From Escherichia coli (lineage in GTDB: Bacteria; Pseudomonadota; Gammaproteobacteria; Enterobacterales; Enterobacteriaceae), in assembly GCF_009931435.1 (NCBI RefSeq), contig NZ_CP043414.1: 64,000 bases of DNA; one strand, written 5' to 3'. Numbering within the stretch: the stretch's first letter is position 1; every line of letters begins with the position of its first letter. The position numbers were made by a program. Below are positions 54,001-57,000 of the stretch, piece after piece.

Positions 54001-57000
54001 TTCATTAAGTAGTTTTTCACCGGAATGACCGAAAGGAGGATTTCCGATGTCATGCGCCAGAGCTGCCAGTTCAACCACCACCGGGTTAACCAGTTTGAGG
54101 TCTGACGCGATACTTCGGGCGATCTGAGCAACCTCAAGACTGTGCGTTAATCTGTTTCTGTTGAATTTTTCAGGATCAATTTCAAAAAGTTGCATCTTTC
54201 CCTGCAGCCTGCGAAATGATGATGAATACAGAATACGCGCATAATCCCGTTGATAATTATCCCGGCTTCTTGTTTCACCATCGGGGGACGGGTGCTCTCT
54301 GGTATCAGCAAGCGCACTGATAAGTTTTTGTTCCTGCTCTTGCGCAAATTCTTTTAATTCATTGCAGTACATATTTCTTCCTTTCTGGAGCATGTTACCA
54401 AATCAGAATACCGGATGAACAAAACTGGTGGCTACATCCTGTAGGGATTATGTATTAGTAAGCTCTGGCCATTAGTGCCATTTCAGGTTATGTGATCCTA
54501 CTCACGTAATATGGACACAGGCCTAAGTGAGGTTCTGGTTTTCAAATTGTTCCGGACTGAGGCCGCCACACCAACTGTGCCGCCGCCACCGATTGTAATC
54601 ACATTCGATATAATTAAACACCGTTGCCCGCATTATTTCCCGGCTGATAAAGTGTTCTCCATGGATACATTCCACTTTCAGCGAATGAAAGAAGCTTTCC
54701 ACGCAGGCATTATCGTAGCAGCAACCTTTTGCGCTCATACTTCCACGCAGATTATGCCGCTTCAGTTGCGCCTGATAATCTGCTGAACAGTACTGGCCTC
54801 CACGGTCCGTGTGAACGATAACGTTCCGGGGCCTCTTACGCCGCCACAGCGCCATCTGCAGGGCATCGCAGGCCAGTTGCGCCGTCATGCGTGGCGACAT
54901 TGACCAGCCAATAACGGCACGTGACCACAGGTCAATGACCACTGCCAGATACAGCCAGCCTTCATCTGTACGTAAGTACGTGATGTCTCCTGCCCACTTC
55001 TGGTTCGGGCCACTGGCGTAAAAATCCTGCTCCAACAGATTTTCTGACACAGGCAGGCCGTGTGCGCGGTAGCTGACCGGGCTGAACTTCCGGGAGGCCT
55101 TTGCCCTCAGTCCCTGACGGAGCAGGCTTGCCGCCACGGTTTTTACGTTAAAGGGGTAACCCTGAGCACGCAGTTCATCCGTCAGGCGTGGGGCACCGTA
55201 ACGCTGTTTTGACCGGGTAAAAGCCGCGAGGACAACGCTGTCGCAGTGTTGGCGGAACTGCTGACGCGTGCTTATCCTTGTCCGCCGCTGACACCACGTA
55301 TACCAGCCGCTGCGGGCCACCCGGAGCACGCGGCACATTGCTTTGATGCTGAACTCAGCCTGATGTTTTTCAATAAAGACATACTTCATTTCAGACGATT
55401 CGCAAAGTATGTCGCGGCCTTTTGGAGGATAGCCAGTTCCTCTGCCTGCTCCGCCAGTTGCCGCTTCAGGCGGGCATTTTCAGCGGCCAGTTCACTTTCA
55501 CGATCTGACGAACTCATTTGTTGCTGCAGTTTGCTGCGCCACGCATAGAGCTGTGATTCATACAGGCTGAGTTCACGGGCTGCGGCAGCAACACCGATGC
55601 GTTCAGCAAGTTTCAGGGCTTCACTGAGAAATTCAGGCGAATGCTGTTTACGGGGTTTTTACTGGTTGATACTGTTTTTGTCATGTGAGTCACCTCTGAC
55701 TGAGAGTTTACTCACTTAGCCGCGTGTCCACTATTGCTGGGTAAGATCAAGTCTTACTTACCCTGTGAACCATGTTGATATTGATACTATATTGACTATA
55801 TGCCATACAGGTGGTAATGATTAGTTACTACCATACAGGAAAAGGTAGAAAATGACTCTTTTGGTAACGGCTGAGTGTGTTGACGATCTGATAAACGATG
55901 TTCATCAAGCTATCCTAGCGGATGGACTCAGTAACGATCCTACAAAAGGATCAACTCTAGAGATTCTTGGTGCCTATCTTGTCCTTACCGACCCCCGCCG
56001 AAGAATAAGTAGAACAGAATCCCGAGGAAAACTAATTAGTTGCTTAGGTGAATTTCTGTGGTATCTCTCAGCTCAGAACGATCTTGAGTTTATAAAACAC
56101 TTCATACCACGTTACGCTGAATCCGCTGAGTCAGATGGGAAAATACATGGTGGTTACGGGCCACGGTTGTTTAATATGCGTGGTTTATATAATCAGCTAA
56201 AAAATGTCATCAACCTTTTGCAGGAGAAAAAACCTACCAGACGTGCAGTAATACAGCTTTTCGATGCCTCAGACTTGGTGCCCTCAAAAACTGAACAGCG
56301 AGAATACGTAGATATTCCTTGTACAATATCTATGCAGTTTATTGTCAGATGTGAAGAGCTGCATCTATTTGTTTGTATGCGTTCTAACGATGCCTTTATG
56401 GGGCTGCCTCATGATGTATTTGCGTTCACGATGCTACAGGAATTAGTTGCCCGCTTGATAGGATGCGAATTGGGTCACTATCATCACTTTGTATCCAGCC
56501 TACATCTCTATAAAAATGATTTAGAAAAAGTGAAGGCTCTTCAGAAAGAGGGGTTCATGAGCACCCTACCAGTCATGGGATCGATGCCTGAAATGCATTC
56601 CTTAGATGATATCTTACCCCTGCTTGAGGCAGAAAAAGCTCTTCGAGAGAATAAGGAATTTGATATTGACACTACTTCCTTGAATGACTACTGGAAGGAT
56701 TTATTGCGTATATTAAAAATCCACTTTTTGTTACGTTCACATACACCCAACCACAAAGGACTAGCCTTCCAAGAGTTGGCTGCAATGAAAAATCAGGAAT
56801 ATCGGTTTATTTTTGAAGGAAGACTACAATGAAAAGACATAATCAAATCAGTCAGCTGGTTAGTAATTTGCAAAATTTTAGCCGCAATGAACACAACCTA
56901 AATGGTCTAAGTTCTCCTGCCTGCTTTGATGTTTTAGCCTGTCAGATTATCGACAGTATACGTCGTATACGCTATGTGGAAACTCTTGCATTACGGACCG

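What the first reader, a model, noticed from the sequence alone, without database searches (positions are those of the whole stretch)
54493..55749. IS3 copy inserted between the divergent dGTPase-like and ThyA-like genes, with apparent orfA frameshift
IS3 sits in the shared upstream region and may alter expression of both. Its orfA has A5 where A6 is needed, so this copy is defective for transposition or the base call is wrong. I could not identify a 3-bp target duplication (flanks read ATG and AGT).
Basis: seen in the sequence. Interest (0 to 1): 0.35.

Follow-up and report, generated by a model that had tools for sequence, protein, structure and literature searches.

The report
Dead IS3 copy at rearrangement junction
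This is an ordinary broken copy of the insertion sequence IS3, disabled by a real one-base deletion, and it marks a seam where two unrelated gene modules of an E. coli defence island were joined rather than a fresh insertion into a shared promoter region.

Summary
A 1257-bp IS3 lies at 54493-55749 on the minus strand. Its orfA has A5 (55656-55660) where K-12 IS3 has A6. Its flanks (ATG / AGT) show no 3-bp target duplication.

A5 is not a base-call error. About 230 complete E. coli genomes carry the same junction, and none has A6 with it. NCBI's PGAP annotation calls this copy a frameshifted pseudogene. The shift at codon 10 removes the OrfA HTH domain, so neither OrfA nor the OrfAB transposase can be made.

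The copy is a mosaic. It is 99.6% identical to K-12 IS3 over orfB and the right end, but 72% over a 157-bp block of orfA.

The missing duplication has an explanation. In IS-free relatives, each flank runs into unrelated DNA exactly at the IS end. The dGTPase side continues into a cdiB remnant. The thyA side continues into a type I restriction-modification (R-M) locus. IS3 therefore sits on a rearrangement seam, not in an ancestral shared intergenic region.

Rare derivatives exist:
- LR4 and FORC 064 have orfA converted back to the canonical type, with A6 and an intact transposase, and have lost 11 bp of flank.
- EC2 has lost the IS by deletion between TGTGA repeats.

Effects on neighbouring gene expression remain untested. 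This is ordinary and of low interest.

The parts
54493..55749 (-). IS3 copy, 1257 bp (canonical length 1258). IRL is on the thyA-like side and IRR on the dGTPase side.
   Evidence: Identity to K-12 IS3A is 95.5% overall: 99.6% over alignment columns 379-1279, and 72% over columns 222-378.
55711..55749 (-). Left inverted repeat (IRL), about 39 bp, TGATCTTACCCAGCAATAGTGGACACGCGG...
   Evidence: Single exact hit in the window. Identical to S3, pOkiPb01709 and N44 apart from one base in pOkiPb01709. K-12 IS3A differs only in its first bases. The 39-bp extent is my position-by-position comparison of the two ends read.
54493..54531 (+). Right inverted repeat (IRR), about 39 bp. It carries two G-to-A changes (10 and 36 bases from the tip) relative to K-12 and to most orthologous copies.
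   Evidence: Only 22 records match this exact tip version.
55656..55660 (-). A5 run in orfA codons 9-10 where the reference has A6. This is the inactivating 1-bp deletion.
55613..55684 (-). Truncated out-of-frame orfA product: 23 codons plus a stop.
55386..55655 (-). Remainder of the orfA frame. It is no longer reachable from the orfA start codon. If A6 is restored, it encodes HTH_Tnp_1 and the coiled-coil.
   Evidence: repaired OrfA: PF01527, residues 12-78, E 3e-10.
55394..55550 (-). Diverged 157-bp block in the 3' half of orfA, 72% identical to K-12 IS3. The same variant type occurs on plasmid pOkiPb01709 with A6.
55419..55423 (-). A-AAA-G motif, the presumed programmed -1 frameshift site. 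It is conserved.
   Evidence: A slip here joins ...ELAILQK to [15 protein letters not shown] in the orfB frame. Its role as the slip site is from my recollection of Sekine et al. 1994, not tested here.
54523..55389 (-). orfB, 288 aa, an open frame with an intact rve/DDE core. It has one R-to-L substitution not seen in the K-12 or S3 copies.
   Evidence: PF00665, 5.6e-28.
54544..54618 (-). Latent outward-facing promoter motifs of the IS3 right end (TTTAAT-15-TACAAT and TTGGTG...CAATTT), pointing at the dGTPase gene.
   Evidence: for positions. PMC12095673 for the motifs, and for the wild-type IS3 right end having no detectable promoter activity.
55750..55765 (+). 16 bp (AGTCTTACTTACCCTG) next to IRL. 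This is native thyA-upstream DNA, not IS-derived. It is absent in EC2 and partly absent in LR4 and FORC 064.
   Evidence: Present without any IS in SCU-152..
54491..54495 (+). Left copy of the TGTGA microhomology that bounds the deletion seen in strain EC2.
55764..55768 (+). Right copy of the TGTGA microhomology.
55792..55821 (+). Promoter-like site TTGACT-18-AATGAT upstream of the thyA-like gene, outside the IS. It is conserved in EC2, SCU-152 and Enterobacter chuandaensis.
53140..54393 (-). dGTPase-family gene. PGAP places the start at 54372. 100-120 bp of native upstream DNA remain before the IS.
55852..56832 (+). Thymidylate-synthase-like gene, the first gene of a thyA-like / aGPT-Pplase3 / XRE-M78 / MazG module.

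Best explanation
The element is a non-autonomous relic of IS3.

Inactivation (shown): a 1-bp deletion in the A-run at orfA codons 9-10 shifts the frame before the HTH domain.

Consequence (inferred from established IS3-family biology): neither OrfA nor the OrfA-OrfB fusion transposase can be made, because both start at the orfA ATG. orfB, the frameshift motif and both inverted repeats survive, so the copy could move only if another IS3 supplied transposase.

Age (shown): the lesion is old and fixed. The same copy with A5 sits at the same junction in about 230 complete E. coli genomes. In the window's sub-lineage it has gained two more IRR substitutions and an orfB missense change.

Junction (shown): the copy lacks a target duplication because its two flanks come from different earlier contexts.

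Mechanism (inferred): the flanks were joined by an IS3-mediated rearrangement. This was either homologous recombination between two IS3 copies or an adjacent deletion by intramolecular transposition. The first option would also account for the mosaic of a variant orfA with a canonical orfB. The dGTPase and thyA-like genes are therefore neighbours because of the IS.

Expression (not tested): the thyA-like core promoter-like element is retained. The dGTPase gene keeps 100-120 bp of native leader and lies downstream of, and co-oriented with, the IS3 genes.
For: A5 versus A6:
- Searches show K-12 IS3A and the plasmid variant have A6, while the window and S3 have A5.
- One search shows no genome pairs A6 with this junction. 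The junction is in 236 genomes, and the best hits are 211/212.
- Searches show PGAP annotates the copy as 'frameshifted'.

Loss of function:
- One search gives the frames.
- One search shows HTH_Tnp_1 at residues 12-78 of the repaired OrfA, and an intact rve domain in OrfB.
- PMC11708052 states that OrfAB is required for transposition.

Junction:
- the thyA flank is in 232 genomes, and nearly all carry the IS tip.
- SCU-152 has the thyA module without IS3, downstream of hsdM-hsdS. Homology to the window, including the 16 bp, stops at the IRL end.
- the dGTPase flank is in 325 genomes.
- Rb-50 and MB19 have dGTPase upstream DNA continuing past GGTTATGT into about 400 bp of other sequence. One search shows this contains a cdiB fragment.
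- PMC11708052 names IS-IS recombination and adjacent deletion as the usual causes of missing target duplications.

Mosaic.

Ongoing decay.

Derived variants:
- LR4 and FORC 064.
- EC2. It shares the LR4/FORC 064 dGTPase 1-bp deletion.
Against: - No parental junction was found. Neither IS3 with a duplication in the SCU-152-type context nor in the Rb-50-type context appears in the 5426 genomes. The order of events and the mechanism remain inferred.
- The mosaic also appears in a copy at another site (N44). It may predate this locus, in which case it is not evidence for recombination here.
- The relative order of the type I R-M and thyA modules differs between SCU-152 and the window type. More than one rearrangement is therefore needed.
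- No expression or transposition data exist here.
Confidence: 0.85

Rival explanations
1. The A5 run is a homopolymer sequencing or assembly error, and the copy is really an intact 1258-bp IS3.
For: Homopolymer miscalls are common, and the difference is a single base.
Against: Among 236 genomes with this junction, from many laboratories and hosts, none has A6. All 30 of the best full-length hits span 1257 bases. PGAP flags the copy as frameshifted in S3 and CFS3273. The copy also carries other decay marks.
Confidence: 0.02
2. IS3 made a simple insertion into an ancestral dGTPase-thyA intergenic region. Its 3-bp duplication was later erased by point mutations, and the IS-free arrangements are secondary.
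For: EC2 has the two genes adjacent without an IS.
Against: EC2 lacks 16 bp of native thyA-upstream DNA that the IS-free outgroup SCU-152 has. EC2 is bounded by TGTGA microhomology. EC2 shares a dGTPase frameshift with the IS-bearing LR4/FORC 064 lineage, so it is a derived deletion. Turning ATG into AGT needs two substitutions. Both IS-free contexts diverge exactly at the IS ends.
Confidence: 0.06
3. The copy is retained because it now serves the host. It would supply read-through or outward transcription, or an insulating spacer, for the dGTPase defence gene, and so would be an exapted IS rather than neutral debris.
For: - It is fixed in about 230 genomes of diverse origin.
- orfAB is co-oriented with the dGTPase gene, and no terminator-like site lies between them.
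- The IS3 right end carries latent outward promoter motifs (PMC12095673).
- No sigma-70-like site was found in the retained native leader.
Against: - The wild-type IS3 right end has no detectable promoter activity, and its last 50 bp repress transcription (PMC12095673).
- The window's three right-end SNPs are not at the reported key pause positions, assuming the 150-bp construct ends at the IS tip.
- Fixation is equally explained by clonal or island inheritance of a copy that cannot excise.
- The dGTPase gene is itself frameshifted in some carriers.
Confidence: 0.07

Closest known systems
IS3 of E. coli K-12 (IS3A, insE1/insF1; IS3 family, IS3 group)
   Same: - The terminal repeats are the same: IRL is identical beyond the first bases, and IRR differs at 2 of its 39 bases (3 changes in the terminal 50 bp).
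- The orfA/orfB layout is the same, with an ATGA overlap and a conserved A-AAA-G motif.
- Identity is 99.6% over orfB and the right end.
- The domains match: HTH_Tnp_1 and rve.
   Different: - One A is missing in orfA (A5 versus A6), which makes it a pseudogene.
- A 157-bp block of orfA is only 72% identical.
- There is no 3-bp target duplication.
Variant IS3 copies carrying the same diverged orfA block (truncated copy on plasmid pOkiPb01709_1; truncated copy in strain N44)
   Same: They share the diverged orfA 3' half at 95-99% identity.
   Different: The plasmid copy has A6. The N44 copy has other lesions (ATG to AAG, different indels) and lies at another site. Both are truncated.
Orthologous copy in LR4 and FORC 064 (intact transposase WP_096945146.1)
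   Same: They have the same IRR junction with the dGTPase leader and the same right-end SNPs.
   Different: Their orfA region is of the canonical K-12 type with A6, and PGAP annotates it as intact with a programmed frameshift. 11 bp of the thyA-side flank are missing. This fits gene conversion or recombination with a canonical IS3.
IS copies without target duplications at rearrangement junctions (IS-IS recombination, adjacent deletions; PMC11708052)
   Same: No duplication is present. The flanks trace to different contexts, and the IS lies exactly at the breakpoints.
   Different: Here the event is ancient and fixed, the IS has since died, and the parental configurations were not recovered.

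Membership tests
IS3 (IS3 family, IS3 group) | Imperfect terminal inverted repeats of about 39 bp, beginning 5'-TG and ending CA-3' | tested here: met
   TGATCC... at 54493 and ...GATCA at 55749. Each end is unique in the window and aligns end to end with K-12 IS3A.
IS3 (IS3 family, IS3 group) | High nucleotide identity to the IS3 reference, at isoform level | tested here: met
   95.5% overall and 99.6% outside the orfA block. Thousands of E. coli IS3 copies match at 95-99%.
IS3 (IS3 family, IS3 group) | Two consecutive overlapping ORFs (orfA with an HTH, orfB with a DDE/rve domain) linked by a -1 frameshift motif | tested here: inconclusive
   The layout, the A-AAA-G motif and orfB are intact. 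orfA is interrupted at codon 10, so the architecture is present only as a pseudogene.
IS3 (IS3 family, IS3 group) | 3-bp direct target duplication flanking the element | tested here: not met
   The flanks are ATG and AGT. This is explained by a secondary rearrangement. The feature defines a fresh insertion event, not the element itself.
IS3 (IS3 family, IS3 group) | Autonomous transposition through OrfAB | not testable with these tools
   Predicted to be lost, because the frameshift lies upstream of the HTH. A transposition assay is needed.
dGTPase anti-phage defence gene (neighbour) | Match to the PADLOC dGTPase profile; HD and HD_assoc domains | tested here: met
   PDLC02374 at 1.4e-109. PF01966 and PF13286. 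Defence activity was not tested.

The most novel reading that the evidence does not exclude
The dead IS3 may have been kept because it rewired a defence island. On this reading it fused a dGTPase gene to a thyA-like/aGPT-Pplase3/MazG nucleotide-modification module, and it now drives or insulates dGTPase transcription from its co-oriented promoter or its latent right-end promoters. It would then be an exapted regulatory element rather than debris.
Probability: 0.07. Interest if true: 0.35.

Novelty: already known. Interest (0 to 1): 0.15.

Why it matters
It matters little beyond annotation.
- It shows the A5 call is a real, fixed lesion and needs no correction.
- The two flanking genes should not be read as an ancestral divergent pair with a shared regulatory region.
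- This locus gives a tidy natural series of IS fates. The window type is dead. LR4 and FORC 064 were revived by conversion with a small adjacent loss. EC2 lost the IS through microhomology.
- The more interesting biology lies next door, in the unvalidated thyA-like/aGPT-Pplase3/MazG module.

Tried and rejected
- Metagenome scan for an empty site, using GTGCCATTTCAGGTTATG-N(0-30)-TGAACCATGTTGATATTG: 0 hits.
- Idea that the 16 bp beside IRL is an IS-generated inverted copy of the IRL tip (GGGTAAG / CTTACCC): rejected, because the 16 bp occur upstream of thyA in IS-free SCU-152.
- EC2 as the ancestral empty site: rejected.
- The thyA-MazG module as an IS3 composite transposon: rejected. The transposase fragment at 59891-60433 is ISL3 family, and there is no second IS3 end in the window.
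- Searches for parental junctions (SCU-152-type upstream DNA plus IRR; IRL plus Rb-50-type DNA): no spanning hit.
- Idea that the window's right-end SNPs hit the reported RNA polymerase pause positions: not supported. The SNPs are 45, 36 and 10 bases from the tip, and the reported positions are 28 and 26. The supplementary figure was not available.
- Simple sigma-70 scans found no dGTPase promoter, either in the retained leader or in the native IS-free upstream DNA. Whether the IS removed that promoter cannot be judged.
- The Enterobacter chuandaensis homologue could not resolve the insertion site. Its homology to the window begins only about 65 bp upstream of the thyA start.

Full report
**What is there**

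The window contains one IS3 element at 54493-55749, 1257 bp long, on the minus strand. It begins TGATCCTACTCACG... (IRR, next to the dGTPase-like gene). It ends ...CTGGGTAAGATCA (IRL, next to the thyA-like gene). Each terminal sequence occurs once in the window, with none expected by chance.

A search of 5426 complete E. coli genomes matched it in 4685 of them. Most of those matches are canonical IS3 copies at 95-99% identity. A separate class of 312 records matches at 99% or more. All 30 of the best hits span exactly 1257 bases.

**The frameshift**

I aligned the element with K-12 IS3A (NC_000913.3 315229-316483). The reference reads ACC AGT AAA AAA CCC CGT. The window reads ACCAGTAAAAACCCCGT, so it has A5 where the reference has A6. 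On the + strand the run is T5 at 55656-55660.

Translation from the orfA ATG at 55684 gives 23 residues and a stop. The rest of OrfA continues in another frame. That frame has no alternative start before a late ATG, which would give only a 43-aa fragment. With A6 restored, OrfA carries HTH_Tnp_1 at residues 12-78. OrfB (54523-55389) has an intact rve core.

Both OrfA and the OrfAB fusion start at the orfA ATG, and OrfAB is the transposase of IS3-family elements (PMC11708052). The copy should therefore be unable to move on its own. The A-AAA-G motif at 55419-55423, through which a -1 slip joins the two frames, is conserved. Its role as the slip site is from my memory of Sekine et al. 1994 and was not tested.

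**Not a base-call error**

The same copy sits at the same locus in strains S3 and CFS3273, where PGAP annotates it as 'frameshifted'. I rebuilt the thyA-side junction with A6 and searched again. 236 genomes carry the junction. The best hits are 99.5% identical with a 211-base span for a 212-base query, which means A5. None is 100%.

An A6 version of the same orfA variant exists on plasmid pOkiPb01709_1. A5 is therefore a deletion, not the variant's normal state.

**Mosaic and decay**

Identity to K-12 IS3A is 95.5% overall. It is 99.6% over the 901 alignment columns covering orfB and the right end, and only 72% over a 157-bp block in the 3' half of orfA (55394-55550).

The window's sub-lineage, about 20 genomes, has two extra G-to-A changes in IRR that most orthologous copies lack. 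The window copy also has an R-to-L change in OrfB that is absent from the K-12 and S3 copies.

**Why there is no target duplication**

The flanks are ATG and AGT. Three comparisons explain this.

1. SCU-152 carries the thyA-like module without any IS3, downstream of a type I R-M locus in a selC island. Its sequence reads ...AAGAACGTCA-AGTCTTACTTACCTTGTGAACC.... The 16 bp beside IRL are therefore native thyA-upstream DNA, and homology to the window stops at the IRL end.
2. Rb-50 and MB19 carry the dGTPase gene without IS3. Their leader continues past ...GGTTATGT into about 400 bp of shared sequence that includes a cdiB-like fragment. Homology stops at the IRR end.
3. The one genome in which the two genes are adjacent without an IS is EC2. 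It lacks the IS plus those 16 native bases, and the loss is bounded by TGTGA repeats (54491-54495 and 55764-55768). EC2 also shares a 1-bp dGTPase deletion with the IS-bearing LR4/FORC 064 lineage. It is therefore a derived deletion, not an empty site.

The IS thus lies on a seam between two DNA segments that were not previously contiguous. IS-IS recombination and adjacent deletion are the usual causes of missing duplications (PMC11708052). I could not decide between them, because no parental junction was found.

The order of the R-M and thyA modules also differs between SCU-152 and the window type. An ISL3 fragment marks the other edge of the thyA module. The history therefore involves more than one event.

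**A revived derivative**

In LR4 and FORC 064 the same IRR junction is kept. The orfA region is of the canonical K-12 type with A6, and PGAP calls the transposase intact (WP_096945146.1). 11 bp of the thyA-side flank are gone. The window type retains those 11 bp, so LR4 cannot be its ancestor. LR4 is best read as conversion by, or recombination with, a canonical IS3. EC2 descends from that lineage, and it lost the IS where a working transposase was present.

**Effect on neighbours**

This was not tested.

- *thyA-like gene.* A promoter-like site, TTGACT-18-AATGAT (55792-55821), lies between the IS and the thyA-like start codon. It is conserved in EC2, SCU-152 and Enterobacter chuandaensis, so the core promoter-like element is probably intact.
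- *dGTPase gene.* It keeps 100-120 bp of native leader, in which the simple scan found no sigma-70-like site. It lies downstream of the co-oriented IS3 genes, with no terminator-like site between them.
- *IS3 right end.* It carries the two latent outward promoter motifs described for IS3 (54618-54592 and 54574-54544). The wild-type end has no detectable promoter activity, and its last 50 bp repress transcription (PMC12095673). The window's three right-end SNPs do not fall on the reported key pause positions.

**Verdict**

It is a known element in a known state of decay, already flagged by PGAP. Interest is low.

Noticed in passing
window 55852-59588: A conserved four-gene module: a thyA-like gene (PF00303); an aGPT-Pplase3 / amino-acid:DNA transferase gene (PF18746, 4.8e-90, 56829-57773); an HTH_3 + Peptidase_M78 regulator (57776-58858, -); and a MazG-like gene. 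Relatives of the thyA-like gene were found in 39 other species, and Enterobacter chuandaensis (79% aa identity) has the first three genes in the same order; the other 38 loci were not inspected. aGPT-Pplase and MazG are listed as predicted but unvalidated defence domains in DefensePredictor (PMC13092281). This module is more interesting than the IS.
   Followed up: partly
window 59891-60433 (-): An ISL3-family transposase fragment (PF01610) between the MazG-like gene and a DEAD/DEAH helicase plus type I R-M genes. It marks the other breakpoint of the thyA module.
   Followed up: partly
L047 (LR4) 2774-3936 and L052 (FORC 064) 2531-3693: At the same locus the IS3 has a canonical orfA with A6 and an intact transposase, and 11 bp of flank are lost. 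This is a natural example of a dead IS revived by conversion.
   Followed up: yes
L003 (EC2) about 6500; window 53218: EC2 lost the IS through a deletion bounded by TGTGA microhomology. EC2, LR4 and FORC 064 share a 1-bp deletion that frameshifts the dGTPase gene, so the defence gene is itself decaying in that lineage.
   Followed up: yes
L048 (Rb-50) 5235-5650; L049 (MB19): In about 36-40 genomes the dGTPase gene has an IS-free upstream region containing a cdiB (ShlB/FhaC) remnant followed by other IS debris. This may be the older context of the dGTPase gene.
   Followed up: partly
L045 (N44) 3338-3952: Another truncated copy of the same orfA-variant IS3 lies at a different site, next to IS1 and fec, abutting a ProQ/FinO fragment of the same island type. 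It has its own lesions.
   Followed up: no
window 1-64000: The window's GC content is patchy, from 34% to 62% in 2-kb bins, and it holds no tRNA gene. This fits a mosaic genomic island. In SCU-152 the related island sits at tRNA-Sec (selC).
   Followed up: no
window 54010: A single T (C in the four compared strains: EC2, FORC 064, LR4, S3) within the dGTPase gene. Its effect was not assessed.
   Followed up: no
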